Positions 7,107 to 61,033 of a stretch of 64,000 nt of DNA are shown in pieces. The notes beneath the pieces are model-generated. The model was not told the DNA's origin. It ran no database searches and worked only from the letters and a program-made list of their open reading frames with translations. The stretch spans positions 3,911 through 67,910 of the forward strand of contig JAUSJC010000005.1 in assembly GCA_030647775.1 (NCBI GenBank), given 5' to 3'. Both the position numbers and the translations under genes were made by a program. Source of the stretch: Candidatus Curtissbacteria bacterium. GTDB taxonomy: Bacteria > Patescibacteriota > Microgenomatia > Curtissbacterales > GWA2-41-24. How positions within the stretch are numbered: position 1 is the first letter of the stretch; every line of letters starts with the position of its first letter.

Positions 7107-7856
7107 TTAATTGTCAAAATCCCTCGGATTAGGCCCATCATATTCCACATCTTCTTCGCTGAGTCGTCTAACCGGTTTTCCCCTTGTCGCTTCCTCAACA
7201 ACATGGGCAACCAGCCCCGGAGTCCTGGCGATTATAAAAATGCCCTTCCCCACCTTAGAATCAAAACCCATTTCCAAAAGAAGCGCCGCTATAATCCCAT
7301 CAATATTGAGTGGCAAATTTTTACCCTGAGCTTGTCGAAGGGCCTCTTCGACCCCTTTTGCCAGCTCCACATACTTCCCCTCAAACCCAAACTCACGGGC
7401 CAGTTCAATTAGCCTCTCTGTCCTAGGGTCTCTCTCATACAGCTTATGGCCAAAACCCGCTACACGCTTGTCTTTTGCCTTAAAATCGGCTATCAGCGCC
7501 TCTGGGCCGCGGTCTTGGTAAGCCGCGAAGTTTTCCATTGCGGCTTCAATCGCTCCGCCGTGATATTCACCAAGCGCCAGTATCCCACCGGCCACAGCAG
7601 CCTGAACCGGACTGCCGCCTGAATAAATGTTTCTGGCCGCCACAACCGAAGCCGGCTCCACGCCGTGATCGATAGAAATCGTCAAGATTGCATCGAGCAT
7701 TTTCTCCGCTTCCGCGCCCGGCATCTCGCCCTTTAAAACTAAATAAATAGCCGCCGAAAAAGATTTCGCCCCGGCAAGTTTTGTCAGGTCGTAACCATAT
7801 ACATGGGGTTTACCTTCTACATGAGTGGTTATCGAGGTACGATACGCTTTTGGCAT
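7107..7856 (-). CDS. citrate-synthase-family small protein, citryl-CoA lyase (Ccl)-like
   Basis: 249 aa and lacks the large N-terminal citrate synthase domain; contains the GFGHKLYERDPR citrate-synthase signature region. Confidence 0.6.
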   Translation of the reverse strand: MPKAYRTSITTHVEGKPHVYGYDLTKLAGAKSFSAAIYLVLKGEMPGAEAEKMLDAILTISIDHGVEPASVVAARNIYSGGSPVQAAVAGGILALGEYHGGAIEAAMENFAAYQDRGPEALIADFKAKDKRVAGFGHKLYERDPRTERLIELAREFGFEGKYVELAKGVEEALRQAQGKNLPLNIDGIIAALLLEMGFDSKVGKGIFIIARTPGLVAHVVEEATRGKPVRRLSEEDVEYDGPNPRDFDN

Positions 7857-7900
7857 AAATTAAGTATACTTGATCTTGCACTAAAGTATCATCGCCTACA

Positions 7901-8374
7901 CTATCTACCGCTGGTATATCCTAATTCTCGTAAAGCCTGCCCTAACCCAACAACGCCCCGCTTGTCAATATTATTATCTATTATGACCCTAAAAGCATCT
8001 GCCCCTGTCCGAACATCTTTTCCAATTACAACGAGATTCTTATAGTGTTCCGGTTCACCCGCCCAATCCAAGTCCCCATAAGTATCAGCAATTCCAAACC
8101 ACACTCCGTCTACTTGAATCTTTCCATAAACTGTTCTCCTATCATTATTTGGCATTATCGGGCCTTCAAGCTTTTCAAAACCCGGATAGAGCGTTTCTGG
8201 TGCGCCGATTTTTGCGCCAGTATGCTGTTTGACTAAACGTGCCAAATCCTTACCCAGCTTCCGTCTGTATTCTGCTTCATAGTTCCTTTGAGCCTCGCAG
8301 CTCCTTGCGGCCCCTTGTCTTTGAACCTCTTCTCTTCTGCGCTGATCTTCTAATGATCTTTCAATCCAGCTCAT
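7901..8374 (-). CDS. hypothetical protein
   Basis: ORF track only. Confidence 0.4.
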   Translation of the reverse strand: MSWIERSLEDQRRREEVQRQGAARSCEAQRNYEAEYRRKLGKDLARLVKQHTGAKIGAPETLYPGFEKLEGPIMPNNDRRTVYGKIQVDGVWFGIADTYGDLDWAGEPEHYKNLVVIGKDVRTGADAFRVIIDNNIDKRGVVGLGQALRELGYTSGR

Positions 8375-8536
8375 GTATATTTAACTTTCGGCCTCGCATT
8401 TTAGCAAAAAGGGGCAACCGAATCAACCCAAAGTCCGCGATCCAACAACATTCAAATCGCCTTTTTAATTAAGTTCGGGATATCTTCAAAATTTCTATTA
8501 CTCTGTATCACTGATTTAAATCACTAAAACAAAATT

Positions 8537-8971
8537 TTATTTCCTTGATTTCCGGCTACGGATTATCGCTTCAAGCTCCTCATCACTCTTAAATGCTCTT
8601 CGGCCGCCGCCTGTAAATCGCAAAAGCACCAGTTCCATATCGTGCCAAAACTTTTGCCAACCCTCTATTTGCTCTAACTTTTTCAGAAACAGGCGCCATC
8701 CGTCATCTTCTATGTTCGATGAAACCCTTCCTATCGTATCAACAGAAACTTTTAAAATATCCCGAATCGAACGGTAGTCATAACCCTTATAAAGCAAAAT
8801 CGCAATAGACATTCTTTTGGCAAAATTTACTTTTTCAGTTTTTGTAAAAAAGTCGCTGAAGAAGATAGAAACTTCTTTTTTCTTCTTTAAGTTAGCCATA
8901 ACTGACCAGAAAGAATCGAAAACCTTATTTTCAATCTCTTTTGTCAATTGTCTTCTAGAAACCTGACTCAT
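8537..8971 (-). CDS. TrpR/YerC/YecD-like small DNA-binding protein (paralog 2 of 3)
   Basis: FAKRMSIAILLYKGYDYRSIRDILKVSVDTIGRV aligns with the HTH of the ORFs at 1184-1672 and 40848-41279. Confidence 0.6.
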   Translation of the reverse strand: MSQVSRRQLTKEIENKVFDSFWSVMANLKKKKEVSIFFSDFFTKTEKVNFAKRMSIAILLYKGYDYRSIRDILKVSVDTIGRVSSNIEDDGWRLFLKKLEQIEGWQKFWHDMELVLLRFTGGGRRAFKSDEELEAIIRSRKSRK

Positions 8972-9060
8972 TTTGTACCGACGATTCGAATCAACAGTAC
9001 ATTACAATCCACCTTCTTGTCAAGACAGGACTATATAAACTTTGAGGTAAAGAAAAAGTA

Positions 9061-9954
9061 TCAGATAGATTTTTTAATCAAGGCAGGGATGTCTTCAAAG
9101 TTTTCGGCAACGATTGCTCCGGCCCCGCGAAGCGCTTTGATTTTTTCTTCCATATTCGCTTCCAGCCCGACAATCGCCCCGGCGTGGCCAAGAGCCGTGT
9201 CCTTAGGCAAACTTTCGGCAAATTTCCCGGCCAAAAAAACAATAAACGGTTTGGTAAATTTACCTTCTTTAATAAGTTTTGCCGCTTCAATTTCGCTAGA
9301 CCCGCCAACTTCACCAAAAGCCACAACTACTTTTGTCGCCGGATCATCTTCAAATTCTAAAAGCAAATCCGCAAAACTTGTTCCTGTCAAAAGATCCCCT
9401 CCAACACCCACGACTGTCGACTGCCCAAAACCGCTGGTTGTAATAAGCATCGCCAGCTCCGAACACATTCCCCCTGATTTGGAAATAACGCCAACCTGCC
9501 CTTTGCTAAAAACCGCACTGGGGTTTGGCCCGCCGATGGAACCGATTTTGGCCTCTCCCGGCGAAATGACTCCAACTGATGCCGGACCCAGAACTCTTAC
9601 CCCTTTTTTGGCGGCAGCCGCCAAAATCTGGGCAACGTCCAAAACCGGTATCTTCTCTACAAATATGTGGACTAACGGAATCTGGGCACTAATTGCTTCC
9701 AGCGCTGCAGCTTTTGCCAAAAGCGGCGGCACATAAACCATCGAAACGTCAATCGGTCCGGCCGCTTCCATTGCCTCTACCACACTATTAAAAACCGGCA
9801 CGGTATCTACTTCTTCTCCGCCTTTACCGGGCGTCACACCGGCCACAAGCTTTGTTTCATAATCCAAAAGCTCGGAAGCCGCCTGCGTACCGGATTTACC
9901 CGTGATTCCTTGTATCAATACTCTGGTTGATTTATTGATTAATATCGCCATAAC
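9061..9954 (-). CDS. CoA-binding alpha subunit of an ADP-forming acyl-CoA synthetase, SucD / citryl-CoA synthetase small-subunit-like
   Basis: CoA-binding N-terminus (VLIQGITGKSGTQ) and phosphohistidine loop ALGHAGAIV. The ORF-track start at 10059 overlaps the upstream gene; the start is more likely the internal ATG (MAILINK...) giving a 4-bp overlap. Confidence 0.8.
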   Translation of the reverse strand, partial: VMAILINKSTRVLIQGITGKSGTQAASELLDYETKLVAGVTPGKGGEEVDTVPVFNSVVEAMEAAGPIDVSMVYVPPLLAKAAALEAISAQIPLVHIFVEKIPVLDVAQILAAAAKKGVRVLGPASVGVISPGEAKIGSIGGPNPSAVFSKGQVGVISKSGGMCSELAMLITTSGFGQSTVVGVGGDLLTGTSFADLLLEFEDDPATKVVVAFGEVGGSSEIEAAKLIKEGKFTKPFIVFLAGKFAESLPKDTALGHAGAIVGLEANMEEKIKALRGAGAIVAENFEDIPALIKKSI

Positions 9955-9955
9955 T

Positions 9956-11191
9956 TTACACTTTCGACTTTGACTTTGACTTGTACTTTTCCGACAGTTC
10001 CACCATTTCCCTTGCCGCCGCCGAAATCGGCGTTTGGGGCCCGAACAAATGAATATCAAACCCCTCGCGCTTAGCCAGAGTCTTAAGCATTTTATACGCT
10101 TCTTCCTGCCTTGGCCCCCCTCGCCTAACCACGATTGGATAACTAACTTTCGGCTTTACGCTTTTTAGCCCGTCGGCAAAACCCGCAAGGGTTTCATAAA
10201 TATCCGTAAAATTGGCCACCGCTCCGGCAACCAGACAACCCGAGAGCCTGGGTCGCGAAAGGGCTATTCTGGTAAGTTTTTCTACCTTTTCCCTCGACGG
10301 GTTTCCGGAATACTCGGTGTAATTGGCAGGCTTCCCTCCCGCTGCCGCAACCGAGTCCATCACGAGAAGCGACGCGCCGCCGCCCGAAGCCAAAATCGCT
10401 ATATCACCAGCCAAATCCAAAAATGCGCTGCCTGCCGAACCGCGGTAATCACCCTCATCAATCTTCTTTGCCGCCAGCTCCCTCTCGCTAGGCGCAGCCG
10501 TTATTGCCCCTTTTGGGATAAAGTCAAAATCCTCATGGCGCCCAAGGCCGTTATCATCCAAAATTACTTTGGCGTCGAGCGCCAAAAATTTTCCGCCCTC
10601 CGTTTTGGCAAGCGGATTAATTTCCAGTAGCCGGCAGTCATTTTTGGAAAATGCTTCCCAGAGTTTTGTCGCAAATTCAAAAGAAACGGGAAACTTCTTG
10701 AAATCGCCTTTTGCCGGCCCGGCAACCGGATCGATATAAATTTTTATGACCTCTTCAGGGTTTTGGCGTGCTACCTCTTCAATCTCCATGCCGCCTTTTT
10801 CGGAAAACATTAAAAATGGTTTTCTAAGCGCGGTATCGTAAGTAATTGAAACATAGTATTCAGCCTCAAAACTGGCTTTTTGGGCAAGCAGAATATATTT
10901 GACTTTCTCCCCGTGACCAGCCTCGCCCGACGAGCGTGCGAGTCTAGGCGGGAATTCTTTTCCCAGAAATTCTTTGGCAAATTCCAAAAGCCCCGCTTCG
11001 CGGCTGCAAACTTGCACTCCGCCTGCTTTCCCTCTTCCGCCGGAAAGCACCTGCACCTTAGCAACCACGGGGAATTTTAACTTTGTCCGGGCAGCTTTCA
11101 CCTGCGCAGCTGTTTCACAAACAATAAAAGCCGGGCTTTCGATCCCGGCAGAGGCAAGTACTTTATGCCCCTCAAATTCAAAAAGCTTCAC
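9956..11191 (-). CDS. ATP-grasp beta subunit of an ADP-forming acyl-CoA synthetase, SucC / citryl-CoA synthetase large-subunit-like
   Basis: N-terminal ATP-grasp (KLKFPVVAKVQVLSGGRGKAGGVQ) followed by the CoA-ligase domain. Confidence 0.8.
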   Translation of the reverse strand: MKLFEFEGHKVLASAGIESPAFIVCETAAQVKAARTKLKFPVVAKVQVLSGGRGKAGGVQVCSREAGLLEFAKEFLGKEFPPRLARSSGEAGHGEKVKYILLAQKASFEAEYYVSITYDTALRKPFLMFSEKGGMEIEEVARQNPEEVIKIYIDPVAGPAKGDFKKFPVSFEFATKLWEAFSKNDCRLLEINPLAKTEGGKFLALDAKVILDDNGLGRHEDFDFIPKGAITAAPSERELAAKKIDEGDYRGSAGSAFLDLAGDIAILASGGGASLLVMDSVAAAGGKPANYTEYSGNPSREKVEKLTRIALSRPRLSGCLVAGAVANFTDIYETLAGFADGLKSVKPKVSYPIVVRRGGPRQEEAYKMLKTLAKREGFDIHLFGPQTPISAAAREMVELSEKYKSKSKSKV

Positions 11192-11242
11192 TGTAGCTAA
11201 ATTTTAGCAGTATACTTGGTTTATTTAAAGCTACACGTTAAA

Positions 11243-11296
11243 ATATACAGTGCCATGCGGTTCTCGTCCCGATGGATATCGGGGCTGCGGGCCTAG
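11243..11296 (-). repeat. family-A structured repeat (reverse orientation)
   Basis: ATATACAGTGCCATGCGGTTCTCGTC-hairpin(CCCGAT/ATCGGG)-GCTGCGGGCC is the reverse complement of the CCGCAG...CGCATGGCACTGTATAT consensus. Confidence 0.65.
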
Positions 11297-11751
11297 ATCC
11301 TATGGAAATATCTTTAGCAAAACCCCAAGACGCCAACGCGATTCTAGTCCTACAAACCCAAATTTACCGTGTAGAATCGCTTGCCCCAAACGCGAAAGAG
11401 CTGCTTTTGGCGCTAATCGACGCTGATTATTGTAGTGTTATTGTAGCCAGAGAAAACCTGCCTGCCGGCAAGGCAGGCGGCAAGGTCGTCGGCTCTGCTT
11501 TTCTCTTTTACCTTCCCCTGCCCGCCCACGGCAAAAATTTTGCATATCTGGAAGCAGTAGTCGTCGACGAAAAATCTCGGGGCAAAGGCATCGGTACCGC
11601 TATTTCCAAAAAGGCCATCGAGCTTGCCCGCGCCAACAATTGCTATAAAATGATCTTCACTTCCGGCTTCGACCGCGAAAAAATCCACAAACTCTACGAA
11701 AACCTGGGTTTCGCCAAATGGGGCTACGAATTCAGGATGAACCTAGACTAA
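11272..11751 (+). CDS. GNAT family N-acetyltransferase
   Basis: Acetyl-CoA binding motif VVDEKSRGKGIGTAISKKAIELAR; the start is probably the internal Met (MEISLAK) near 11302, because the 5' end overlaps a repeat. Confidence 0.8.
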   Translation: MDIGAAGLDPMEISLAKPQDANAILVLQTQIYRVESLAPNAKELLLALIDADYCSVIVARENLPAGKAGGKVVGSAFLFYLPLPAHGKNFAYLEAVVVDEKSRGKGIGTAISKKAIELARANNCYKMIFTSGFDREKIHKLYENLGFAKWGYEFRMNLD

Positions 11752-11834: not shown

Positions 11835-13256
11835 CTAACTGGTCAATTTATATCCGCGGGTTTTCACCGTTACTATCTGATATTTGCTCTTTTGGCTCTT
11901 TAGTTTTGTTCGCAGTCTAGCTACCAGCCTATCAATCGTCCAATCCGAAACCCCCAGCTCCTCTACTTCCGGCCAGACCCTTTCGATAATCTGTTCCCTT
12001 TCGCAAACTTCGTTTTTACTGGCCAGAAGGAAATCGTAAAGCTGTTTCTCTTTTTTTGTCAGGTCCACTTTTTCCGCGTCCTGTCCGTTATTTTTTAAAC
12101 CCCCAACATAACCTGCAAAAAGCGGGCTGAAAATGGCGTTGTCTTCTCCAATAATTCCCGTTTCCCATAGATAACTACCGCCGCTCCTATCCTTTTTCTC
12201 GGGCTCTTCACCGGCAAGAATTTTTAAAAGCACCATGCGCTCGTCAGAATTTAAACTTTCCCAAATCTCTTCCGATTGTAAAGTTACTCTCTCGTCCGAA
12301 GTTATCATGTCCAAATAGTTTGTCTCATCGATCTTTTCCGTCTTGCCGCGCTGGTTCAAAACAATTAGGCAAAGCTGTAAATATTGGACGTGCCCTCCCG
12401 TCAAATCTAAGAGTTTCTCGCGAAGCGCACGTGTTGGGTGAATATTATATTTTTCCTCCAAAGTATCGAAAATAATTTCCATATTGGCGCGCTTGGCCGG
12501 TTTGACATAAACCGGGTGGGAAAAAACCGAAAGGAGTTTCCTTTCAAAAACCTCCGGCGCGATTTCATCAAGCGCCCGAAAACTCGTAAAAACATAGGAA
12601 AGTTTGTGGCCGGTCTCTTCATGCAGGGCTATCAGGTTGCGGAAAAATTCGGGAGTGATAGCACCGGCGAACCTGTCAAACCTTAAAAAGAAAAATGTCG
12701 GCAAAATCCCCTCTTTGGCAATTTCGGAAATCGACTTTCTAAATGATTCAATCGCCAAAAAAGCATCCCGGGATTGGATTGTCTCCAAAAACCTAACGGA
12801 AATGTCTTTCTTTACCTTTGCCGGAACGTCCGATTTTTCAACTTTATCGGAAAGTCTTTTAAAGGTCAGGATCCAAAATGGAAAAAGGTCAATTTCTACC
12901 AGATTATTAAGGTCGACAGGAATAAACAAATGCTTTTCCCCGTGATTAATGTATTTGGAAACGGTGTCTTTATGATAAAGAAAGAAACGCAAAAAGTTGG
13001 AGATACCGACACGCTTCATACCCACAAGCTCAACATTATAGCGCAGCCTCAAATGCTCTCCCAAAGTACGCGCATCTTCCTCACGAAAACTCAGGGGATA
13101 TTTGGCTTCAATATGATGAATAGCGTCCATCCTTCGTATGATATTACGAAGCACCATTGTGATACAACAATCACAATAGTTGGCGAAGTAATATGCGGAC
13201 TTTAGTCGCAATACTTTTTTACCAAAGTCTTTTGCAAATGATACCATCCCCAACAC
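11835..13256 (-). CDS. transcriptional regulator with C-terminal OmpR/PhoB-type winged-helix DNA-binding domain and a ~380-aa N-terminal domain of unknown function (possible degenerate P-loop NTPase)
   Basis: The C-terminus LTKKEKQLYDFLLASKNEVCEREQIIERVWPE...IDRLVARLRTKLKS...IVTVKTRGYKLTS fits the trans_reg_C consensus. The N-terminus has GMKRVGIS (Walker-A-like but lacking Lys) and no receiver domain. Confidence 0.6.
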   Translation of the reverse strand: MLGMVSFAKDFGKKVLRLKSAYYFANYCDCCITMVLRNIIRRMDAIHHIEAKYPLSFREEDARTLGEHLRLRYNVELVGMKRVGISNFLRFFLYHKDTVSKYINHGEKHLFIPVDLNNLVEIDLFPFWILTFKRLSDKVEKSDVPAKVKKDISVRFLETIQSRDAFLAIESFRKSISEIAKEGILPTFFFLRFDRFAGAITPEFFRNLIALHEETGHKLSYVFTSFRALDEIAPEVFERKLLSVFSHPVYVKPAKRANMEIIFDTLEEKYNIHPTRALREKLLDLTGGHVQYLQLCLIVLNQRGKTEKIDETNYLDMITSDERVTLQSEEIWESLNSDERMVLLKILAGEEPEKKDRSGGSYLWETGIIGEDNAIFSPLFAGYVGGLKNNGQDAEKVDLTKKEKQLYDFLLASKNEVCEREQIIERVWPEVEELGVSDWTIDRLVARLRTKLKSQKSKYQIVTVKTRGYKLTS

Positions 13257-47135: not shown

Positions 47136-48182
47136 TTAAATAATTCCTCTAGCCTTAAGAAGTTCGGCGTTTAAAATCGCCGCCCCGGCTGCCCCGCGTA
47201 TTGTGTTGTGAACCAGTAGAACTAAATTAATATCCAAGACGTTAGATTCTCTAATTCTACCAACAATAATCGACATTCCGCCGTTTATGTCTCTATCCAA
47301 AACCGGCTGCGGTCTGTTTGCCTCTTCCACCACCACAATTGGCTCTTTCGGCGCCGACGGCAAACCCAATTTTTGCGGCAAGCCCCGAAAGTTTTTCAAA
47401 ACTCTAGTTACCTGCGTGGTTGTTACCCTCTTTTTAAAACCAATGCTTAAAGTTTCTGTGTGCCCATCACGCACACTTACCCTATTGCAATGGGCATCAA
47501 TTTTAAAAGATGCAAATTTCACCTCGTTACCATAAACCTTACCCAAAAGCTTTAGCGGTTCCACCTCGACTTTTTCTTCCTCGTCTTCAATATATGGCAC
47601 CACATTATCAACAGCATCGAGCGCCGAAACCCCGGGGTAGCCAGCACCAGATAGTGCCTGCATCGAAGTCATAACTACCCGCTCTACGCCAAAGGCTTCG
47701 TCCAATGGTTTTAGAACCATCGCCAAACCAACCGTCGTACAGTTGGGGTTCGTGACAATAAAGCCGTCTCCCCCAAACCTTTTTTTCTGAAATTCAATTA
47801 ATTTTATTTGGTCTGGATTAACTTCACCAATCAAAAGCGGCACATCGCTATCCATCCGATGATTTTTAGAGTTACTAATAACCGCATATCCGGCTCTGGC
47901 AAAATTCTCTTCTATTTCTCCGGCTACAGTTGAATCCAAACCGCTGAAAACCACCTTCGCCCCGGTGTTCGCCTCACAAGTTTTAACTTCTAAGTTGGCC
48001 GCATTAGCCGGCAGTTTTGTTGGCAGTCTCCACAAAACTACGTCTTTATAAGACTTACCCGCACTTCGCTCAGAAGCGCAAAGATCGGTAATTTCAAAAT
48101 AAGAATGATTTTCAAGTAGCTGAACAAATCTTTGGCCAACAGCACCGGTTGCCCCCAAAATTCCAACAGGAATTCTCTTCAT
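47136..48182 (-). CDS. asd: aspartate-semialdehyde dehydrogenase
   Basis: Rossmann N-terminus VGILGATGAVGQRF and active-site Cys region (GLAMVL follows the active-site Cys region); 4-bp overlap with dapA. Confidence 0.9.
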   Translation of the reverse strand: MKRIPVGILGATGAVGQRFVQLLENHSYFEITDLCASERSAGKSYKDVVLWRLPTKLPANAANLEVKTCEANTGAKVVFSGLDSTVAGEIEENFARAGYAVISNSKNHRMDSDVPLLIGEVNPDQIKLIEFQKKRFGGDGFIVTNPNCTTVGLAMVLKPLDEAFGVERVVMTSMQALSGAGYPGVSALDAVDNVVPYIEDEEEKVEVEPLKLLGKVYGNEVKFASFKIDAHCNRVSVRDGHTETLSIGFKKRVTTTQVTRVLKNFRGLPQKLGLPSAPKEPIVVVEEANRPQPVLDRDINGGMSIIVGRIRESNVLDINLVLLVHNTIRGAAGAAILNAELLKARGII

Positions 48183-49069
48183 ACCAAAGACAGGTTTTTC
48201 AGAGTTTTAACCAAAACTTCCTTATTTTTTGCTTGCATTGGAACCAAGGGCAAGCGGAAATTTTCGCCAATTCTGCCCATCAAGGCAAGCGCCGTTTTTA
48301 CGGGAATCGGGTTGGTTTCAATAAAATTGACGTTCATTAAATCTAAAAGTTTATAGTGGATATCTTTTGCCTTTTTAAAATTTCCCGAAAGAGCGGCAGA
48401 AACCATCTCGCTCATCTGTCGTGGAACCTCATTGGCCACAACCGAAATAACGCCGTCTCCCCCAACTGCCAAAAGCGGCAAGGTCAGGGCATCATCACCG
48501 GAAAGCACTGAAAAATCGCGGCCAGTACCTTTTATAATATCCATCATTTGCCCTAAGTTACCTGATGCTTCCTTAACCCCGACAACCTGTGGTACCTCTT
48601 TGGCAATTTGAATAACTACATCTGCTGAAACATTTGAACCAGTTCTTCCCGGAACATTGTAAAGAATAATCGGCAAATCAACTGCTTTTGCTATCGCCTT
48701 GTAATGGGCAACCAATCCCGCATTTGTCGGCTTGTTGTAATAGGGAGAAACATGCAAAAGGACGTCGGCTCCGGCTTCTTTGGCAATTTGCGAAAGATGG
48801 ATCGCCCTTGCCGTATCGTTACTGCCAGCTCCGGCGATAACCGGAATTTTCCCGCCTACTACATCAACCGTTGTTCTTACAACCAGCTCGTATTCTTCTA
48901 AATCTAAGGTGGCGGCCTCTCCCGTTGAACCGCATGGCACAATAGCAGAAACCGCGCCTGTTACTAAAAATTTAATCAGCTTTCTAAGCGCGCCAATATC
49001 AACATTCCCCTTCTCGTCAAACGGGGTAACCATAGCCGGGATCACACCGCTAATTTTGGTAAGTCTCAT
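48179..49069 (-). CDS. dapA: 4-hydroxy-tetrahydrodipicolinate synthase
   Basis: GVIPAMVTPF...VPCGSTGE and Schiff-base lysine region YNVPGRTG. Confidence 0.9.
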   Translation of the reverse strand: MRLTKISGVIPAMVTPFDEKGNVDIGALRKLIKFLVTGAVSAIVPCGSTGEAATLDLEEYELVVRTTVDVVGGKIPVIAGAGSNDTARAIHLSQIAKEAGADVLLHVSPYYNKPTNAGLVAHYKAIAKAVDLPIILYNVPGRTGSNVSADVVIQIAKEVPQVVGVKEASGNLGQMMDIIKGTGRDFSVLSGDDALTLPLLAVGGDGVISVVANEVPRQMSEMVSAALSGNFKKAKDIHYKLLDLMNVNFIETNPIPVKTALALMGRIGENFRLPLVPMQAKNKEVLVKTLKNLSLV

Positions 49070-49807
49070 CTAAATTTTCTCCTTATCGAAAACTTGTTCG
49101 AACGAATAAATTCCTTTTTTATTTTTTATAAATTCGGCTGCCAAAAGCGCTCCCTGCGCAAAACCTCGCCGGCTGTGCGCCTGATGCGATAATTTTACTT
49201 CATCGGCCGCGCTGTCAAATACTACCTCATGAAATCCAAAATTATTTCCGCCTCGCACCGATGCAAAGTGTAACTCCTCTTCTTTAATTTGTCTATCGAG
49301 TTTTTCGAAATTGGCGACTTTCTTCTTGCCAAAATTGGCAATCACCAAATCGGTAATTTTTCGAGCCGTGCCGCTCGGGCTATCCTTCTTACCAGAATGA
49401 TGCATCTCCAAACCATAAACATCATACCCGCCGTATTTATCAAATAATTTGCTACTATAAGAAACTATTTTGAAAAAAATATTGGCCCCCACCGAAAAGT
49501 TCTTGGCGTAAATTAACCCGCCTTTACTCTTTTCCACAAGCCCTTTTACCGCGGCAAAATTATCATACCAGCCGGTTGTCCCGACAACTATCTTTGTCCC
49601 CAAAGCTAAAATTTCTTTGATATTGGAAAGAACAATTTCCCCTGATGTAAAATCGACAGCCACATCTGCCCTCTTGATTCCTTCTTTGTCTAGCCTATCT
49701 GTTTTGCTTTTAAAACTTATGGAAACAATCTTATGACCGCTTACTTCGTCAAGCAGTTTCTCAAGCTCTTGCCCCATATTGCCATAACCAACTAGCGCTA
49801 TTTTCAT
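49070..49807 (-). CDS. dapB: 4-hydroxy-tetrahydrodipicolinate reductase
   Basis: MKIALVGYGNMGQEL Rossmann fold and operon context. Confidence 0.85.
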   Translation of the reverse strand: MKIALVGYGNMGQELEKLLDEVSGHKIVSISFKSKTDRLDKEGIKRADVAVDFTSGEIVLSNIKEILALGTKIVVGTTGWYDNFAAVKGLVEKSKGGLIYAKNFSVGANIFFKIVSYSSKLFDKYGGYDVYGLEMHHSGKKDSPSGTARKITDLVIANFGKKKVANFEKLDRQIKEEELHFASVRGGNNFGFHEVVFDSAADEVKLSHQAHSRRGFAQGALLAAEFIKNKKGIYSFEQVFDKEKI

Positions 49808-51154
49808 TTAGCTTTTACCTCCCACGTTCATTTTTTTGACCAGCAACTTGTTATGCAAAACCCGCACGGCCTGCTCAACTTGATCGTATTGTACCACCAG
49901 GCTCACATTTATATCTGTTGCCCCCAAAGAAACCATCTTCACCAGAATTCGCTGCCTGTCCAAAATCTCAAATATTTTTTTAATAGAAAGGCTCGAAGTT
50001 ACAATCCCCTCACCGATTAAAGAAACCATTCCCAGGTTGCGGTTAACAGTTACTTGGGCAAATTCCGAAAGCTTGCTGGTAACCTTGTTAAGGTCTTCGC
50101 CATCTTCTAAAGTAACCGAAACGCTAACCTCCGAAACACTAACCAAATCAATAGAAATATTACTATTTGCAAAAACTGCAAAAATTCTTGCCAAAAAACC
50201 TTTTGAAAAAAGCATTGCTGTTGAATAAATATTAACTAGTGTAATTTTCCTTTTGTAAGAAACGGCAGTAATCGGGTTTTTCAGATCCGGTTTATCCAAA
50301 ATTAAAGTTCCGGCGGATTTTGGATTTAAGGTATTTAGAACTCGAACAGGAATCCCCGCTTTTACCGCCGGCCTAATACTTCTTGGGTGCAAGACTTTTG
50401 CTCCAAAAGCCGCCAGCTCGGAAGCTTCTTTAAAAGAAACTTGGGCAATGACACGCGCCCGCTTTACAATTTTTGGGTCAGCGGTAAAGATTCCATCAAC
50501 ATCCGTCCAGATCTGAATTTCGGAAGCTCTAAGGCAAAAACCGATTATTGCCGCCGAATAATCAGAGCCCCCTCTTCCAAGAGTCGTAATCTCGCCGCTT
50601 TTTGTCGAACCGATATACCCGGTAACAACAGGGACAACGCCGCCAGAAATAAGCGGTTTTAAAATCTTCCTTACTTTTGTTACCGTTGGCCCTGGCAAAA
50701 ATTCCGCCGCCCCGAAATTATTATCAGTAACAATTAAATCATTGGCCACTACTTGCTCTGCCCTTATCCCCGATCTTTTAAGAAATCTCGCCACAATGTA
50801 AGAAGAAATCACCTCACCCGTGGCAAGCACTCTATCTAAATCGGATTTTTCCCTTCCGGCGCGGCCAAGCAATTTTTCAATCTCCGCGAGTTTGGAGTCG
50901 ATATAGAGGCAAACATCCACCAGTTCGTCTCCTTTGAATAGGTCGCTTGCCAAATCTTTGTGCACCCGCCGAATCTCGCGAAGAGTTGAATTTCTATTCC
51001 TGGCAAAAGCCGCGATCAGCAAATCTGTTATGCCACCTACTGCCGAAACCACCACTATCGGTTTTCTCGCCAACTTGCCTTTAATAATCTCGCGAAGAGT
51101 TTTTACTCTTGAGACAGTTGAAAGCGATGTACCACCAAATTTTGTAACAATCAT
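49808..51154 (-). CDS. lysC: aspartate kinase
   Basis: MIVTKFGGTSL amino-acid-kinase N-terminus and C-terminal ACT domains. Confidence 0.9.
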   Translation of the reverse strand: MIVTKFGGTSLSTVSRVKTLREIIKGKLARKPIVVVSAVGGITDLLIAAFARNRNSTLREIRRVHKDLASDLFKGDELVDVCLYIDSKLAEIEKLLGRAGREKSDLDRVLATGEVISSYIVARFLKRSGIRAEQVVANDLIVTDNNFGAAEFLPGPTVTKVRKILKPLISGGVVPVVTGYIGSTKSGEITTLGRGGSDYSAAIIGFCLRASEIQIWTDVDGIFTADPKIVKRARVIAQVSFKEASELAAFGAKVLHPRSIRPAVKAGIPVRVLNTLNPKSAGTLILDKPDLKNPITAVSYKRKITLVNIYSTAMLFSKGFLARIFAVFANSNISIDLVSVSEVSVSVTLEDGEDLNKVTSKLSEFAQVTVNRNLGMVSLIGEGIVTSSLSIKKIFEILDRQRILVKMVSLGATDINVSLVVQYDQVEQAVRVLHNKLLVKKMNVGGKS

Positions 51155-51156
51155 GC

Positions 51157-52407
51157 CTAGAGATTTGAAAAATCTAAAGTCGCAAAGTAATCTTTGACAG
51201 TTTCTGCTCTTCTTATCTCCTCTACCTTACCGTTTGCCTTAAGCAGAAGTTCTGCCGACCTTAATTTTCCATTGTAATTAAAACCCATCGCATGTCCATG
51301 GGCCCCGGTGTCGTGGATAACCAAGATGTCTCCAATTTCAATTTTGGGCAAGCTTCTATCAACGGCGAATTTGTCATTATTCTCGCAAAGCGAACCGACA
51401 ACATCATATGTACGGGATTTTCTGGATTTTTCCTTCCCTAAAACTGTAATGTGGTGATATGCCCCGTACATTCCCGGCCTCATCAAATTGGCCATACAGG
51501 CATCTACCCCAATGTACTTTTTGTAAATATCTTTTTTATGAAGAACCGTTGTCACTAAATATCCATAAGGCCCGGTAATCATCCGGCCGTTTTCCATAAA
51601 AATTTTAAGCGGTGCCATCCCTCTTCCCGCAACTTTCGTCTCGTATAACTTTTTGACCCCCCGCGAGATAAAACCTAAATCAACAGGTTTTTGCCCCGGT
51701 CTATAGGGAATTCCAACTCCGCCGCCAATATTAATAAATTCAAACTTTATCCCTAGCTTTTGCGAGATTTCATATGCCAAATCGATAAGCATCTTTGCTG
51801 TTTCTATAAAATAATTTGCATTAAGTTCATTGGAAGCAACCATCGTGTGCATCCCGAATCTTTTGATTCCCTTATCGGAAACTTTCTTGTAAGCTTCAAA
51901 CATCTGTTCGCGCGTCAAACCATACTTTGCCTCTTCTGGCTTACCGATAATCACATTCCCCTTCCTCAAAGGGCCTGGGTTATAACGGAAACAAATAATC
52001 TGCGGTAACCCCGCATGTTTTTCTAAAAACTCAATATGGGAAATATCATCTAAATTAATAATCGCCCCAAGCTCTTTTGCCTTTTTATATTCGGCAGCCG
52101 GAGTTTCATTTGAAGAAAACATAATTTTCTCACCAACTATCCCAACCTTTTGAGCTAGCATTAGCTCTGGAAGCGAACTGCAATCTAAACCAAACCCGCT
52201 CTCGCCTAAAATTTTTAAAATGTAAGGATTTGGGCAAGCTTTAACGGCAAAAAATTCACCAAAACCCTTGTTCCAGGAAAAGGTCTTTAAAAGCTTTTTT
52301 GCGTTCGCCCGAGTACTCTTCTCGTCATAAATATGAAAAGGTGTTGGATAATCTTTTATAATTTTCTCAATCTGTGCTTTTGTAAAAGGCGGCGTTTTTT
52401 GGGTCAT
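51157..52407 (-). CDS. lysA: diaminopimelate decarboxylase (PLP-dependent, Orn/DAP/Arg decarboxylase fold)
   Basis: PLP-binding lysine region FFAVKACPNP; ...GPLCE motif-bearing C-terminal beta-sandwich; operon context. Confidence 0.85.
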   Translation of the reverse strand: MTQKTPPFTKAQIEKIIKDYPTPFHIYDEKSTRANAKKLLKTFSWNKGFGEFFAVKACPNPYILKILGESGFGLDCSSLPELMLAQKVGIVGEKIMFSSNETPAAEYKKAKELGAIINLDDISHIEFLEKHAGLPQIICFRYNPGPLRKGNVIIGKPEEAKYGLTREQMFEAYKKVSDKGIKRFGMHTMVASNELNANYFIETAKMLIDLAYEISQKLGIKFEFINIGGGVGIPYRPGQKPVDLGFISRGVKKLYETKVAGRGMAPLKIFMENGRMITGPYGYLVTTVLHKKDIYKKYIGVDACMANLMRPGMYGAYHHITVLGKEKSRKSRTYDVVGSLCENNDKFAVDRSLPKIEIGDILVIHDTGAHGHAMGFNYNGKLRSAELLLKANGKVEEIRRAETVKDYFATLDFSNL

Positions 52408-52408
52408 A

Positions 52409-53632
52409 TCAAATTTTTAAGTTTTGGTAAATACTCTCTACTGCTTTTTGAATATTTTCTCGATGTCCAAAGGCGCTAAGCCTTAAATAGCCCTCCCCGC
52501 TGAATCCGAAACCAGATCCCGGAATTCCAACCACGTGAGCTTCCAAAAGGAGCTTATCAAAAAAATCCCAGGATTTCATGTTGCCTGGCGTTTTAAGCCA
52601 GATATAAGGAGCATTATCTCCGCCAAAAGACTTAAGACCCATTTTACTAAGAGTTTTTTTAATCATTCTCGCATTACCCATATAATAATCGACTACTTTT
52701 TGGCTTTGGCTGACACCTTTTGGTGAAAGTACTGCCAATCCCCCTTCCTGGGCAATGTTAGAAGCTCCATTGAACATGGTCGTCTGCCTTCTGTTCCAAA
52801 GCATATTTAGTTTTCCTTGGGGTGAATTTTTGCAGACTAAGCCCATGGGAACAACTGTCCAGCCAAGCCGTACTCCGCAAAATCCCGCCCATTTTGAAAA
52901 ACTATTAATCTCAATGGCGCATTCTTTTGCTCCCGGAACTTCGTAGACACTTCTTGGAAGTTTAGGGTCTGAGATATAAGCGAAATAAGCAGCGTCAAAA
53001 ACTATAACGGCTTTTGTCTTTACGGCAAAGTCTACAAAATTTTTTAATTGTTTTTTAGTCGCAACAGCACCTGTAGGATTATTAGGACTACAGATATAAA
53101 TTAGGTCTACTTTCCTCTTGGGTAAATCTGGGAAAAATCCATTTTCTTCATTGCACGGCAGATAGACAAGGCCCTTATATTTACCCCCGGAAAACTCTCC
53201 TGTTCTTCCGGCAATAACATTACTGTCGACATAAACCGGATAAACGGGATCGCAAACCGCGATGACACTATCTTTGCTGAAAAGAGATTGTATGTTCGCC
53301 GAATCGGATTTGGCCCCATCGCTTATAAAAATCTCGCCCGGATCTAAAAAAACCTTACGCTTCTGATACCATTTACCAAGCGTTTCCCTGAGCAGTAAAT
53401 TACCTTGCTCATCACCATAACCGCTGTATGTCTCAACCCGCGATAACTTTTCTACGCCTTTTGCCAAACCATTAATCACAGCCGGAACAAGAGGTTCTGT
53501 TGTATTGCCTATCCCGAGCCGAAGGATTTCGATATCCGGATTTTTATTGGCGAACTCTTTTGTTCTCCTGGCGATTTCCGAAAACAAATATCCGGCAGCG
53601 AGCTTGTCAAAGTTCGTATTGATTGTCGCCAT
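52409..53632 (-). CDS. dapL: LL-diaminopimelate aminotransferase
   Basis: MATINTNFDKLAAGYLFSEIARR N-terminus typical of DapL; class I aminotransferase fold; first gene of the lysine operon. Confidence 0.8.
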   Translation of the reverse strand: MATINTNFDKLAAGYLFSEIARRTKEFANKNPDIEILRLGIGNTTEPLVPAVINGLAKGVEKLSRVETYSGYGDEQGNLLLRETLGKWYQKRKVFLDPGEIFISDGAKSDSANIQSLFSKDSVIAVCDPVYPVYVDSNVIAGRTGEFSGGKYKGLVYLPCNEENGFFPDLPKRKVDLIYICSPNNPTGAVATKKQLKNFVDFAVKTKAVIVFDAAYFAYISDPKLPRSVYEVPGAKECAIEINSFSKWAGFCGVRLGWTVVPMGLVCKNSPQGKLNMLWNRRQTTMFNGASNIAQEGGLAVLSPKGVSQSQKVVDYYMGNARMIKKTLSKMGLKSFGGDNAPYIWLKTPGNMKSWDFFDKLLLEAHVVGIPGSGFGFSGEGYLRLSAFGHRENIQKAVESIYQNLKI

Positions 53633-53685
53633 GAACCAAATTTTATCCTAATATCGTACCATTAACAAATCGGGGTAGATCCAAA

Positions 53686-59656: not shown

Positions 59657-59673
59657 TTCGGAGTAAATTTGGA

Positions 59674-60678: not shown

Positions 60679-60716
60679 GAAGAATAAGCTCTCTTATTGT
60701 TCGAGCTTGTCGAGAA
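60661..60716. repeat. family-C/F repeat unit (ATTGTTCGAGC...AATAAGCTCTCTTATTGTTCGAGCTTGTCGAGAACTACC)
   Basis: Matches the intragenic copy in rluA (19567-19592) and intergenic units at 39189-39222 and 63095-63128. Confidence 0.6.
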
Positions 60717-61028
60717 CTACCACTGATTTGACCATTCACCATTAATTAGTTTTCGTTTCTTTTCTTGATTCCAATCTTTAATTTGTCTCTCACGTGCTCG
60801 GGCAGTAGGTAAATCGGTATGTTCTTCAACATATACTAATTTTTTGACTCCATGTTTAGCCGTGTACTTACCTCCAAGGCCTGATATATATTGCTCCAAT
60901 CTTAACTCTGGTCTCCATGTCAACCCAGTGTAATAGGTATCATCAAGACACTCGATAATGTAGACATACCATTTCCAATTTTTCTGTAAGGCACTTCTCG
61001 ACTTCGCTCGAAGAATATAGCTGGACAC
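60717..61028 (-). CDS. GIY-YIG nuclease superfamily protein (UPF0213/YhbQ-like)
   Basis: KWYVYIIECLDDTYYTGLT...KHGVKKLVYVEEHTDLPTARARERQIKDW; the first ~12 codons of the track ORF are repeat-derived, so the true start is probably internal. Confidence 0.75.
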   Translation of the reverse strand: MSSYILRAKSRSALQKNWKWYVYIIECLDDTYYTGLTWRPELRLEQYISGLGGKYTAKHGVKKLVYVEEHTDLPTARARERQIKDWNQEKKRKLINGEWSNQW

Positions 61029-61033
61029 TGTTT

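What the first reader, a model, noticed from the sequence alone, without database searches (positions are those of the whole stretch)
7107..11191. Gene set resembling the two-enzyme ATP-citrate-lyase route (citryl-CoA synthetase + citryl-CoA lyase)
A 249-aa citrate-synthase-family protein lacking the large N-terminal domain (Ccl-like, GFGHKLYERDPR region) lies about 1.2 kb from a translationally coupled SucC-like/SucD-like pair (phosphohistidine loop GHAGAIV). This three-protein composition is the one described for citryl-CoA synthetase/citryl-CoA lyase in Hydrogenobacter. The set is unexpected in what otherwise looks like a small, streamlined genome. Alternatively the pair is an ordinary succinyl-CoA synthetase and the small protein a truncated citrate synthase. 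A hypothetical gene and a TrpR-like regulator are interposed.
Basis: inference. Interest (0 to 1): 0.6.

Follow-up and report, generated by a model that had tools for sequence, protein, structure and literature searches.

The report
Split ATP-citrate-cleaving enzyme genes, CPR bacterium
A tiny-genome Curtissbacteria (CPR) bacterium carries three genes that are most likely a citryl-CoA synthetase plus citryl-CoA lyase (ATP + CoA + citrate to acetyl-CoA + oxaloacetate), not a succinyl-CoA synthetase with a broken citrate synthase; the kind is known, and its role in a cell not expected to run a TCA cycle is open.

Summary

All genes lie on the minus strand:
- 9956-11191: SucC-like beta, 411 aa.
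- 9061-9951: SucD-like alpha, 296 aa, starting 4 nt after the beta stop.
- 7107-7856: 249-aa citrate-synthase-family protein.
- Between alpha and that gene: a TrpR/YerC-like gene and a 157-aa orphan.

Evidence for CCS/CCL:
- Beta carries Pfam Citrate_bind rather than Ligase_CoA. Its best solved relative is H. thermophilus CcsA.
- Beta has the GGGAS, ANFTD and VRRGGP motifs of ATP-citrate lyase (ACL) and CCS, not the SucC motifs.
- Alpha is more similar overall to SucD. It nevertheless shares two insertions with CcsB/AclA and groups with them (99% NJ bootstrap).
- The small protein passes NCBIfam's citryl-CoA lyase cut-off. It aligns end to end with H. thermophilus Ccl (222 bits; best citrate synthase 76).
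- In 76 of 80 related species (CPR, DPANN, a few Acidobacteriota) the order is beta-alpha-ccl on one strand. A 43-nt relic of the alpha 3' end fits the TrpR-like gene being a later insertion.

A 2022 preprint already places CPR/DPANN sequences with CCS/CCL, so this is a new member of a known kind. Activity, direction and physiological role are untested. No other TCA-cycle enzyme was found among the 45 window ORFs scanned, apart from a malic enzyme.

The parts
9956..11191 (-). Large (beta, CcsA/AclB-like) subunit of a citryl-CoA synthetase: N-terminal ATP-grasp domain plus C-terminal citrate-binding domain; 411 aa, GTG start.
   Evidence: Pfam ATP-grasp_2 150.7 bits and Citrate_bind PF16114 96.8 bits, with no Ligase_CoA. 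Best PDB hit is 6hxq_B CcsA at 177.5 bits, then AclB 145.7 and SucC 133. Motifs ILASGGGAS, GAVANFTDI and VVRRGGPR, against NGAGLA, GGIVRC and VVRLEGNN in SucC. NJ clade with ACL and CCS has 76% support. 100% identical to an NCBI Curtissbacteria protein named 'ATP citrate lyase citrate-binding domain-containing protein'.
9061..9951 (-). Small (alpha, CcsB-like) subunit: CoA-binding Rossmann domain plus CoA-ligase domain with the phosphohistidine loop GHAGA; 296 aa.
   Evidence: Pfam CoA_binding 76.9 bits and Ligase_CoA 67.4 bits. Below the NCBIfam SucD equivalog cut-off (287.9 against 336). Shares with CcsB/AclA, and not with SucD, a 4-residue insertion (IGSIGGPN), a 3-residue insertion before GHAGA (FAESLPKD) and SKSGGM in place of SRSGTL. 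NJ split {CPR+CcsB+AclA} against SucD has 99% support. Caveat: overall similarity is higher to SucD (253 bits) than to CcsB (204 bits).
7107..7856 (-). Citryl-CoA lyase (Ccl), a short citrate-synthase-family protein of 249 aa.
   Evidence: NCBIfam NF004869 'citryl-CoA lyase' 281.9 bits, above the cut-off of 212. PDB 6hxp_A H. thermophilus Ccl 222 bits over residues 2-247; best citrate synthase 76 bits. Lacks the roughly 115-residue segment present in E. coli GltA. Keeps IDH, YHGGA, GFGH, DPR, NIDG and the conserved Arg. NJ {CPR+Ccl} 87%; {CPR+Ccl+AclA} against CS 99%.
8537..8971 (-). TrpR/YerC-YecD-like small DNA-binding protein (144 aa), a lineage-specific insertion between alpha and ccl. It could regulate the operon; this is not shown.
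   Evidence: PF01371 48.2 bits; TIGR02531 36.6 bits, below its cut-off. Present at this position only in L001, L012 and L022 among 85 loci.
7901..8374 (-). 157-aa hypothetical ORF, a second passenger between alpha and ccl.
   Evidence: No Pfam, NCBIfam or PHROGs hit. Found only in L001 among the 85 related loci; L001 matches the window at 99-100% amino-acid identity across all seven shared genes.
8452..8494 (-). Degenerate relic copy of the last 14 codons plus stop of the alpha gene, lying just downstream of the TrpR-like gene. It is a scar of the insertion.
   Evidence: 43-nt direct repeat, 8452-8494 against 9061-9103, 77% identical. It reads NFEDIPNLIKKAI*, against NFEDIPALIKKSI* at the alpha C-terminus.
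11201..11229 (-). Sigma-70-like promoter match 10 nt upstream of the beta start codon (weak evidence).
   Evidence: TTTAAA-17-TAAAAT with an extended TG, 9 of 12 matches. The number of such sites in the region (9) is not clearly above the shuffled expectation (6.0 +/- 2.6).
11272..11751 (+). Divergently transcribed GNAT acetyltransferase (159 aa). It is a conserved neighbour in Curtissbacteria relatives and uses acetyl-CoA, but is not shown to belong to the system.
   Evidence: PF00583 53.2 bits. Detected divergent and adjacent in L001-L005 and in 9 of the 80 genome loci, all among the closer relatives.

Best explanation
The locus encodes a two-enzyme, ATP-dependent citrate-cleavage system of the CCS/CCL type, in effect an unfused ATP-citrate lyase.

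**Proposed mechanism**
1. The beta subunit binds ATP in its ATP-grasp domain and citrate in its C-terminal citrate-binding domain.
2. The alpha subunit binds CoA and carries the catalytic histidine of the GHAGA loop. That histidine is phosphorylated and shuttles the phosphate, giving citryl-phosphate and then citryl-CoA.
3. The 249-aa citrate-synthase-fold protein cleaves citryl-CoA by a retro-Claisen reaction into acetyl-CoA and oxaloacetate, using the conserved His/His/Asp set.

**What is shown and what is inferred**
- Shown here: domain composition, diagnostic motifs and indels, phylogenetic placement of all three proteins, and strict conservation of the beta-alpha-ccl gene order.
- Inferred: the substrate, the direction and the physiological role.

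**Most likely role**
The system would supply acetyl-CoA and oxaloacetate from scavenged citrate in a CPR bacterium of a group reported to lack a complete TCA cycle. This is not autotrophic rTCA carbon fixation. The TrpR-like gene and the 157-aa gene are later insertions into an ancestrally contiguous operon.
For: **Beta subunit**
- Citrate_bind scores 96.8 bits, between characterised-type CcsA (58.4) and AclB (201.5). Three SucC controls hit Ligase_CoA instead.
- PDB ranking is CcsA > AclB > SucC.
- The motifs GGGAS, ANFT and VRRGGP are shared with ACL and CCS. They match human ACLY positions N346-F347-T348 and V377-R378-R379-G380-G381-P382, whose numbering is consistent.
- NJ trees: 76% for the CPR+ACL+CCS clade and 97% for the wider non-SCS clade.

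**Alpha subunit**
- Two insertions are shared with CcsB/AclA and absent from five SucD sequences. The split has 99% bootstrap support.
- The GHAGA histidine and the GE(V/I)GG glutamate are conserved.

**Ccl**
- It exceeds the NCBIfam citryl-CoA lyase cut-off.
- It scores 222 bits end to end against the solved H. thermophilus Ccl.
- Catalytic residues are retained and it clusters with Ccl at 87%.

**Genomic coupling**
- Beta, alpha and ccl sit on the same strand in the same order in 76 of 80 species. The median alpha-ccl gap is about 50 nt.
- The same holds in metagenome loci L002-L005.

**Independent literature**
- A preprint finds CPR and DPANN 'SCS/CS' sequences monophyletic with CCS/CCL.
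Against: - No biochemical data exist for any CPR or DPANN member.
- By overall score the alpha subunit is closer to SucD (253 bits) than to CcsB (204) or AclA (141). It also lacks the C-terminal tail of Aquificae and Nitrospirota CcsB.
- The best NCBIfam names for alpha and beta are succinate-CoA ligase subunits, although both are below cut-off.
- The trees are neighbour-joining on small (alpha, Ccl) or unannotated (beta) samples. Support for the exact beta clade is only 76%, and the order inside it is unresolved.
- Among the 45 window ORFs scanned against Pfam (about 45 of the 64 kb), no aconitase, isocitrate dehydrogenase, 2-oxoglutarate:ferredoxin oxidoreductase, fumarase, malate dehydrogenase or citrate transporter was identified. 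The source of citrate and the fate of the products are therefore unknown, and ORFs under about 195 aa were not scanned.
- The rest of the genome could not be examined.
Confidence: 0.75

Rival explanations
1. The same three proteins run in the opposite direction. Acetyl-CoA and oxaloacetate are condensed to citryl-CoA by the Ccl-like protein, and CCS converts it to citrate, conserving the thioester energy as ATP (substrate-level phosphorylation). This was proposed long ago for ATP-citrate lyase in Desulfobacter postgatei (own knowledge: Moller, Schauder, Fuchs and Thauer 1987).
For: The chemistry is reversible and uses the same residues. CPR bacteria are described as fermenters that depend on substrate-level phosphorylation. 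Nothing in the sequence fixes the direction.
Against: It would need a steady supply of oxaloacetate and a sink or export route for citrate. Neither an aconitase nor a citrate exporter was seen among the window ORFs scanned. All characterised CCS/CCL systems work in the cleavage direction (own knowledge: Aoshima et al. 2004).
Confidence: 0.1
2. It is a CCS/CCL-like pair that acts on a different hydroxy-, di- or tricarboxylate (for example 2-methylcitrate, isocitrate, citramalate or malate), forming and then cleaving the corresponding acyl-CoA.
For: Identity to characterised-type enzymes is only 33-46% (beta 33-38%, alpha 36-41%, Ccl 46-53%). Other uncharacterised ATP-grasp ligase families also give weak Citrate_bind hits (P0305 35.8 bits, P0315 28 bits), so the Pfam name alone does not prove citrate specificity. 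The CPR-type beta lacks a 4-5-residue insertion before VRR that ACL and CCS share.
Against: The residues equivalent to the ACLY citrate contacts (N and T of ANFT, the RR of VRRGGP, GGGAS) are conserved in the window protein and in nearly all of about 60 CPR-like cluster representatives. The window Citrate_bind score exceeds that of H. thermophilus-type CcsA. The lyase partner is specifically Ccl-like.
Confidence: 0.1
3. It is an ordinary succinyl-CoA synthetase (SucCD) next to an unrelated, truncated or decayed citrate synthase.
For: The top NCBIfam names are succinate-CoA ligase alpha and beta. Alpha resembles SucD most by overall score. Public pipelines often label these genes SCS.
Against: Both NCBIfam SCS equivalog scores are below cut-off: 232.7 against 370, and 287.9 against 336. 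Beta lacks Ligase_CoA and the SucC motifs. Alpha carries CCS/ACL-specific insertions. The small protein is a full-length Ccl above the curated cut-off, not a fragment. The three genes stay together in 76 of 80 species. The DAP pathway in the window uses DapL, so it does not need succinyl-CoA.
Confidence: 0.03

Closest known systems
Citryl-CoA synthetase (CcsA/CcsB) plus citryl-CoA lyase (Ccl) of Hydrogenobacter thermophilus (PDB 6HXQ, 6HXP; Aoshima et al. 2004, own knowledge)
   Same: Three separate polypeptides with the same domain make-up: ATP-grasp plus citrate-binding; CoA-binding plus phosphohistidine domain; short citrate-synthase fold. It is the best PDB hit for beta and for Ccl. Alpha shares its insertions. 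The Ccl keeps the HGGA histidine.
   Different: Identity is 37% (beta), 41% (alpha) and 46% (Ccl). Here the genes form one operon, whereas H. thermophilus ccsA has no ccsB or ccl within 6 kb on either side. Alpha lacks the roughly 35-residue C-terminal tail of CcsB. Beta has ANFTD (ACL-like) instead of ANNTR and lacks the insertion before VRR. The host is a CPR bacterium, a group reported to lack a complete TCA cycle, not an rTCA autotroph.
Heteromeric bacterial ATP-citrate lyase AclB/AclA (Chlorobium/Chlorobaculum, Nitrospira; PDB 6HXJ)
   Same: The gene order beta then alpha(+CCL) is identical. The beta motifs GGGAS, ANFTD and VRRGGP are the same. The overall reaction is the same.
   Different: In ACL, alpha and the CCL module are fused into one protein of about 608 aa. 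Here they are separate genes. The ACL CCL module has RFGGA where Ccl and the window protein have HGGA. Alpha is only 37-39% identical and Ccl 24-26% identical to AclA.
Nitrospirota (Leptospirillum-like) ccsA-ccsB-aconitase-ccl cluster (locus L009)
   Same: Unfused CCS and CCL encoded in one cluster. Its Ccl is the closest reference to the window Ccl (53% identity).
   Different: That cluster includes aconitase, which fits an rTCA role. The CPR operon has none. The Nitrospirota CcsB carries the C-terminal tail, and its CcsA has the Aquificae-type motifs.
Succinyl-CoA synthetase SucCD (E. coli, Thermus, archaeal)
   Same: Same superfamily, subunit organisation and phosphohistidine mechanism. Alpha is 44-47% identical to SucD.
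   Different: The beta C-terminal domain is of the citrate-binding type. Diagnostic motifs and indels differ. Scores are below the curated SCS cut-offs, and the proteins sit in separate clades.

Membership tests
Citryl-CoA synthetase / citryl-CoA lyase (CCS/CCL) | Large subunit combines an ATP-grasp domain with an ACL-type citrate-binding C-terminal domain rather than the SucC Ligase_CoA domain. | tested here: met
   PF08442 150.7 bits plus PF16114 96.8 bits, no PF00549. Controls: SucC proteins give PF00549 only; CcsA gives PF16114 at 58.4 bits; AclB gives 201.5 bits.
Citryl-CoA synthetase / citryl-CoA lyase (CCS/CCL) | Small subunit has a CoA-binding domain and a phosphohistidine loop, and belongs to the CcsB/AclA lineage rather than to SucD. 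| tested here: met
   GHAGA and GEVGG are conserved. Two CCS/ACL-specific insertions are present. NJ split against five SucD sequences has 99% support. Caveat: the overall score is higher to SucD.
Citryl-CoA synthetase / citryl-CoA lyase (CCS/CCL) | C-terminal extension of CcsB, about 35 residues ending KPLYST in H. thermophilus and Nitrospirota. | tested here: not met
   The window alpha and three CPR relatives end where SucD ends. It is unclear whether this tail defines the family or only the Aquificae/Nitrospirota branch.
Citryl-CoA synthetase / citryl-CoA lyase (CCS/CCL) | Stand-alone lyase of about 250 aa with a citrate-synthase fold, lacking the segment that citrate synthases carry, with the catalytic His/His/Asp retained. 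| tested here: met
   NF004869 281.9 bits, above the cut-off of 212. 6hxp_A 222 bits over residues 2-247. About 115 residues of GltA are absent. IDH, YHGGA, GFGH, DPR and NIDG are present. NJ with Ccl has 87% support.
Citryl-CoA synthetase / citryl-CoA lyase (CCS/CCL) | Citrate + ATP + CoA gives citryl-CoA, which gives acetyl-CoA + oxaloacetate (enzyme activity). | not testable with these tools
   Needs recombinant protein assays.
Citryl-CoA synthetase / citryl-CoA lyase (CCS/CCL) | Operates within a reductive TCA cycle (aconitase, IDH, OGOR, fumarate reductase and others in the genome). | tested here: inconclusive
   None of these was found among the 45 window ORFs scanned against Pfam, about 45 of the 64 kb. 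CPR bacteria generally lack a complete TCA cycle. The rest of the genome could not be read.
Heteromeric ATP-citrate lyase (AclB/AclA) | Alpha (SucD-like) and CCL modules fused in one polypeptide of about 600 aa. | tested here: not met
   Separate ORFs of 296 aa and 249 aa lie 1.2 kb apart here. They are separate but adjacent in 76 related loci. AclA is 608 aa.
Heteromeric ATP-citrate lyase (AclB/AclA) | Beta-subunit citrate-site motifs GGGAS, ANFT(D/N)V and VRRGGPN. | tested here: met
   The window has ILASGGGAS, GAVANFTDI and VVRRGGPR.
Succinyl-CoA synthetase (SucCD) | Scores above the curated equivalog cut-offs, with the SucC C-terminal Ligase_CoA domain and the NGAGLA, GGI(V/T)RC and VRLxGTN motifs. 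| tested here: not met
   Beta scores 232.7 against a cut-off of 370; alpha scores 287.9 against 336. Beta has no PF00549. The motifs differ.
Citrate synthase (bona fide) | Full-length enzyme of 360-430 aa that includes the segment between the N-terminal region and the catalytic core, and scores above the CS model cut-offs. | tested here: not met
   The protein is 249 aa. The best CS-type NCBIfam score is 104 bits against a cut-off of 421. The GltA segment at alignment columns 101-217 is absent.

The most novel reading that the evidence does not exclude
The CPR/DPANN beta-alpha-ccl operon is a distinct, possibly early-branching, unfused form of ATP-citrate lyase.

- It has ACL-type citrate-site motifs and the aclB-aclA gene order.
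- Its alpha subunit is still SucD-like, and its lyase still carries the Ccl-type histidine.

In this genome oxaloacetate could feed aspartate. Via the malic enzyme it could also feed pyruvate. Aspartate and pyruvate are the two inputs of the DapL-type diaminopimelate/lysine operon at 47136-54837. Acetyl-CoA would serve acetylations, for example by the divergent GNAT.
Probability: 0.3. Interest if true: 0.6.

Novelty: new member of a known kind. Interest (0 to 1): 0.4.

Why it matters
- **Annotation.** These genes are routinely labelled succinyl-CoA synthetase and citrate synthase in CPR and DPANN genomes. That label suggests a meaningless 'partial TCA cycle'.
- **Metabolic prediction.** Read as citrate cleavage, they give a concrete and testable prediction. 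Many ultra-small episymbionts would obtain acetyl-CoA and oxaloacetate from citrate at the cost of one ATP. This points to citrate as a metabolite taken from the host or the environment.
- **Evolution.** The strictly conserved beta-alpha-ccl order is the arrangement expected just before the alpha-CCL gene fusion that produced ATP-citrate lyase. The clade is therefore useful for reconstructing how ACL, and by extension citrate synthase, arose.
- **Limit.** None of this is new in kind. A preprint has already noted the phylogenetic affiliation.

Tried and rejected
- **SCS plus truncated CS.** Rejected on domain, motif, indel, cut-off and tree evidence.
- **SCS-like pair making succinyl-CoA for DapD.** I considered that the pair might supply succinyl-CoA for the diaminopimelate pathway in the same window. 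Rejected, because the pathway uses LL-DAP aminotransferase DapL (TIGR03542, 564.6 bits against a cut-off of 364.7).
- **A recurring partner gene inserted between alpha and ccl in other lineages** (a transporter or aconitase, say). I read the longest ORFs in 18 enlarged gaps by eye. They look unrelated to one another: membrane proteins, a reverse-transcriptase-like ORF, and orphans. None was run against Pfam. There is therefore no recurring partner, and the TrpR-like and 157-aa genes are best seen as passengers.
- **Phage origin of the inserted genes.** PHROGs gave no hit for either.
- **Promoter and terminator scans.** Counts were not above the shuffled expectation. Only the site just upstream of beta is worth noting.
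- **Branching order among CPR-type, ACL and CCS beta subunits.** NJ support inside the clade is 0-24%, and indels point in different directions. No claim is made.
- **Literature on a role in CPR.** I found only a passing phylogenetic statement in one preprint.
- **Whole-genome inventory.** This was not possible. The exact protein is indexed only on a 4.8-kb Logan contig.

Full report
**What is there**

The region holds five minus-strand ORFs:
- beta, 9956-11191: 411 aa, GTG start.
- alpha, 9061-9951: 296 aa, starting MAILINK.
- a TrpR/YerC-like gene, 8537-8971: 144 aa.
- a 157-aa ORF, 7901-8374.
- a 249-aa citrate-synthase-family gene, 7107-7856.

The beta stop codon (TAA) is separated from the alpha ATG by 4 nt. 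From the alpha stop to the start of the 249-aa gene is 1204 nt. The beta protein is 100% identical to an NCBI protein of a Candidatus Curtissbacteria MAG, named 'ATP citrate lyase citrate-binding domain-containing protein'. The organism is therefore a CPR (Microgenomates) bacterium.

**Beta subunit**

- Pfam finds ATP-grasp_2 and, in the C-terminal half, Citrate_bind (PF16114, 96.8 bits). It does not find the Ligase_CoA domain of SucC.
- Controls confirm the contrast. E. coli SucC and two SucC-like cluster representatives hit Ligase_CoA (84-117 bits) and not Citrate_bind. H. thermophilus-type CcsA hits Citrate_bind at 58 bits, and Chlorobaculum AclB at 201 bits.
- Against solved structures the order is CcsA 6hxq_B (177.5 bits), AclB 6hxj_A (145.7), then SucC (133 or less).
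- NCBIfam's SucC equivalog is missed: 232.7 bits against a cut-off of 370.
- I aligned 150 sequences: the best cluster representatives from a scan of 1.84 billion proteins plus references.
  - The window protein and about 60 nearest representatives carry (S/A)GGGAS, ANFT(D/R)I and (V/I)RR(G/A/D)GP.
  - ACL beta subunits carry AGGGAS, ANFTDV and VRRGGPN.
  - CcsA carries FGGGGS, AN(N/S)TRI and VRR(N/G/S)GPE.
  - SucC carries NGAGLA, GGI(V/T)RC and VRLxGTN.
- The ANFT and VRRGGP motifs correspond to human ACLY N346-F347-T348 and V377-R378-R379-G380-G381-P382. That numbering is consistent with the residues listed in PMC9504748. That N346, T348 and R379 contact citrate is my own recollection of the 3MWD structure paper.
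- A neighbour-joining tree (366 columns, 200 bootstraps) puts CPR-like, ACL and CCS sequences in one clade at 76%. A wider clade excluding all SucC-type sequences has 97%. The order inside the clade is unresolved.

**Alpha subunit**

- By overall score it resembles SucD most (2yv2 253 bits), ahead of CcsB (204) and AclA (141). It is below the SucD equivalog cut-off (287.9 against 336).
- An alignment with CcsB (H. thermophilus, Nitrospirota), AclA (Chlorobaculum, Nitrospira) and five SucD sequences shows three states shared with CcsB/AclA and absent from every SucD:
  - a 4-residue insertion (IGSIGGPN, where SucD has GIMPG);
  - a 3-residue insertion before the phosphohistidine loop (KFAESLPKDTALGHAGA, where SucD has VTA---PKGKRMGHAGA);
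  - SKSGGM where SucD has SRSGTL.
- The NJ split {CPR, CcsB, AclA} against SucD has 99% bootstrap support.
- The alpha subunit is therefore a slowly evolving member of the CCS/ACL alpha lineage.
- It lacks the roughly 35-residue tail of CcsB.

**The 249-aa protein**

- NCBIfam's citryl-CoA lyase subfamily model NF004869 scores 281.9 bits against a cut-off of 212. Every citrate-synthase model is far below its cut-off.
- It aligns over residues 2-247 with the solved H. thermophilus Ccl (6hxp_A, 222 bits). The best citrate synthase scores 76 bits.
- In a 13-sequence alignment it lacks the roughly 115-residue segment of E. coli GltA, exactly as Ccl and the AclA CCL module do.
- It keeps IDH, YHGGA, GFGH, DPR, NIDG and the conserved Arg. 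From memory of the pig citrate-synthase sequence and numbering, these are the equivalents of H238, H274, H320, R329, D375 and R401.
- ACL CCL modules have RFGGA at the second site, so the window protein is Ccl-like rather than ACL-like there.
- NJ: {CPR + Ccl} 87%; {CPR + Ccl + AclA} against citrate synthases 99%.

**Genomic coupling**

- In metagenome relatives at about 60% identity the three genes are directly adjacent. They are followed by ruvC and a DUF5656 gene and preceded by a divergent GNAT and yebC. This is the same neighbourhood as in the window.
- A scan of one genome per GTDB species returned 80 loci:
  - Microgenomates lineages: Curtissbacteria, Woykebacteria, Daviesbacteria, Woesebacteria and other Microgenomates;
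  - some Parcubacteria and Saccharibacteria;
  - DPANN archaea: Woesearchaeota and Nanoarchaeia;
  - a few Acidobacteriota MAGs.
- tblastn with the window proteins finds beta, alpha and ccl in that order on one strand in 76 of the 80 loci. Three of the other four contigs end inside the alpha gene. The fourth (L077) ends about 600 nt after alpha with no ccl hit. The median alpha-ccl gap is about 50 nt.
- Seventeen loci have more than 600 nt between alpha and ccl. The inserted ORFs look unrelated to one another.
- The TrpR-like gene occurs at this position only in L001, L012 and L022. The 157-aa ORF occurs only in L001, whose seven shared genes are 99-100% identical to the window's.
- A 43-nt, 77%-identical copy of the alpha 3' end (NFEDIPNLIKKAI*) lies just downstream of the TrpR-like gene. 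This is consistent with a secondary insertion.
- By contrast, H. thermophilus ccsA has no ccsB or ccl within 6 kb on either side. A Nitrospirota cluster reads ccsA-ccsB-aconitase-ccl. ACL loci read aclB-aclA with alpha and CCL fused.

**Context**

Pfam annotation of 45 window ORFs, about 45 of the 64 kb, found none of the following:
- aconitase;
- isocitrate dehydrogenase;
- 2-oxoacid:ferredoxin oxidoreductase;
- fumarase;
- malate dehydrogenase;
- a citrate transporter.

It did find two metabolic gene sets:
- An operon at 47136-54837 encoding a malic enzyme, DapL (TIGR03542, 564.6 bits), LysA, aspartate kinase, DapB, DapA and Asd.
- The oxidative pentose-phosphate genes at 58202-61744.

Aspartate (from oxaloacetate) and pyruvate (from malate or oxaloacetate via the malic enzyme) are the two inputs of that lysine/DAP route. 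A link to citrate cleavage is therefore plausible but purely inferred.

CPR bacteria are generally reported to lack a complete TCA cycle.

**Mechanism and rivals**

The best-supported reading (about 0.75) is an ATP-dependent CCS/CCL citrate-cleavage system working through the phosphohistidine of alpha and the citrate site of beta, followed by retro-Claisen cleavage by Ccl. It would yield acetyl-CoA and oxaloacetate for biosynthesis rather than for autotrophy.

Rivals:
- The same enzymes running towards citrate with ATP gain: about 0.1.
- A related substrate other than citrate: about 0.1.
- Plain SCS plus a truncated citrate synthase: about 0.03. This is contradicted by every test.

Activity, direction, complex formation and physiological role are not shown.

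**Novelty**

- The kind is known: Aquificae CCS/CCL, solved structures, and a curated NCBIfam model that this Ccl passes.
- A 2022 preprint states that CPR and DPANN sequences annotated as SCS or CS are monophyletic with CCS/CCL.
- Recent genome surveys still list these genes as succinyl-CoA synthetase.
- What I add is the near-universal beta-alpha-ccl operon across CPR and DPANN, the alpha-subunit indels, the mixed ACL-like and Ccl-like character, and the insertion history at this locus.
- I rate this a new member of a known kind, with interest 0.4.

Noticed in passing
window 47136-54837 (minus strand): A seven-gene operon: NADP-malic-enzyme-like protein (383 aa, no PTA domain), LL-diaminopimelate aminotransferase DapL (TIGR03542, 564.6 bits), LysA, aspartate kinase, DapB, DapA and Asd. 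This is a DapL-type DAP/lysine pathway headed by a malic enzyme, which could supply the pyruvate used by DapA.
   Followed up: partly
window 58202-61744: Oxidative pentose-phosphate genes: G6PD (58202-59656, plus strand), 6PGD-like (59674-60678) and 6-phosphogluconolactonase-like (61034-61744). One complete Microgenomates genome was reported to lack this branch.
   Followed up: no
window 8452-8494 and 9061-9103: A 43-nt degenerate direct repeat (77% identical). One copy is a relic of the last 14 codons plus stop of the alpha gene and sits downstream of the TrpR-like gene, marking a secondary insertion.
   Followed up: yes
whole window 1-64000: GC skew is negative in all 32 consecutive 2-kb windows (-0.05 to -0.30; cumulative -5.09), and most genes lie on the minus strand. 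A strong strand composition disparity has been described for another Microgenomates genome (title of PMC7143001).
   Followed up: no
window 11835-13256 (minus strand): A 473-aa protein whose only recognisable part is a C-terminal OmpR/PhoB-type winged-helix DNA-binding domain (Trans_reg_C, residues 395-471), with no receiver domain. It lies between yebC and the GNAT and is conserved at about 50% identity in several Curtissbacteria loci.
   Followed up: no
L014, L023, L025, L030, L035 and many other loci: Many MAG records titled 'uncultured Gammaproteobacteria bacterium' (and some titled 'Methanosarcinales') carry this CPR/DPANN-type operon, some with Curtissbacteria-like synteny. The record titles look like placeholder or wrong taxonomy.
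   Followed up: no
L066 2403-4882; L053 5740-6411; L063 7127-8227; L085 7074-8611: Within the operon in other lineages, the beta-alpha or alpha-ccl junctions hold unrelated passenger ORFs. By eye these include a reverse-transcriptase-like ORF, small possible toxin-antitoxin or rRNA-intervening-sequence-type proteins, and a 432-aa ORF. None was run against Pfam. The junctions seem to be insertion hot spots.
   Followed up: partly
L009 5001-10522: A Nitrospirota contig has ccsA-ccsB-(54-aa ORF)-aconitase-ccl in one cluster. This is an rTCA-style arrangement, different both from H. thermophilus (no ccsB or ccl within 6 kb of ccsA, L008) and from the CPR operon.
   Followed up: partly
P0327 (1023 aa): A single-chain protein with beta, alpha and CCL modules fused and only a short linker. 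It is shorter than eukaryotic ACLY and its source is unknown. It shows that the fully fused form also exists in the metagenomic protein pool.
   Followed up: no
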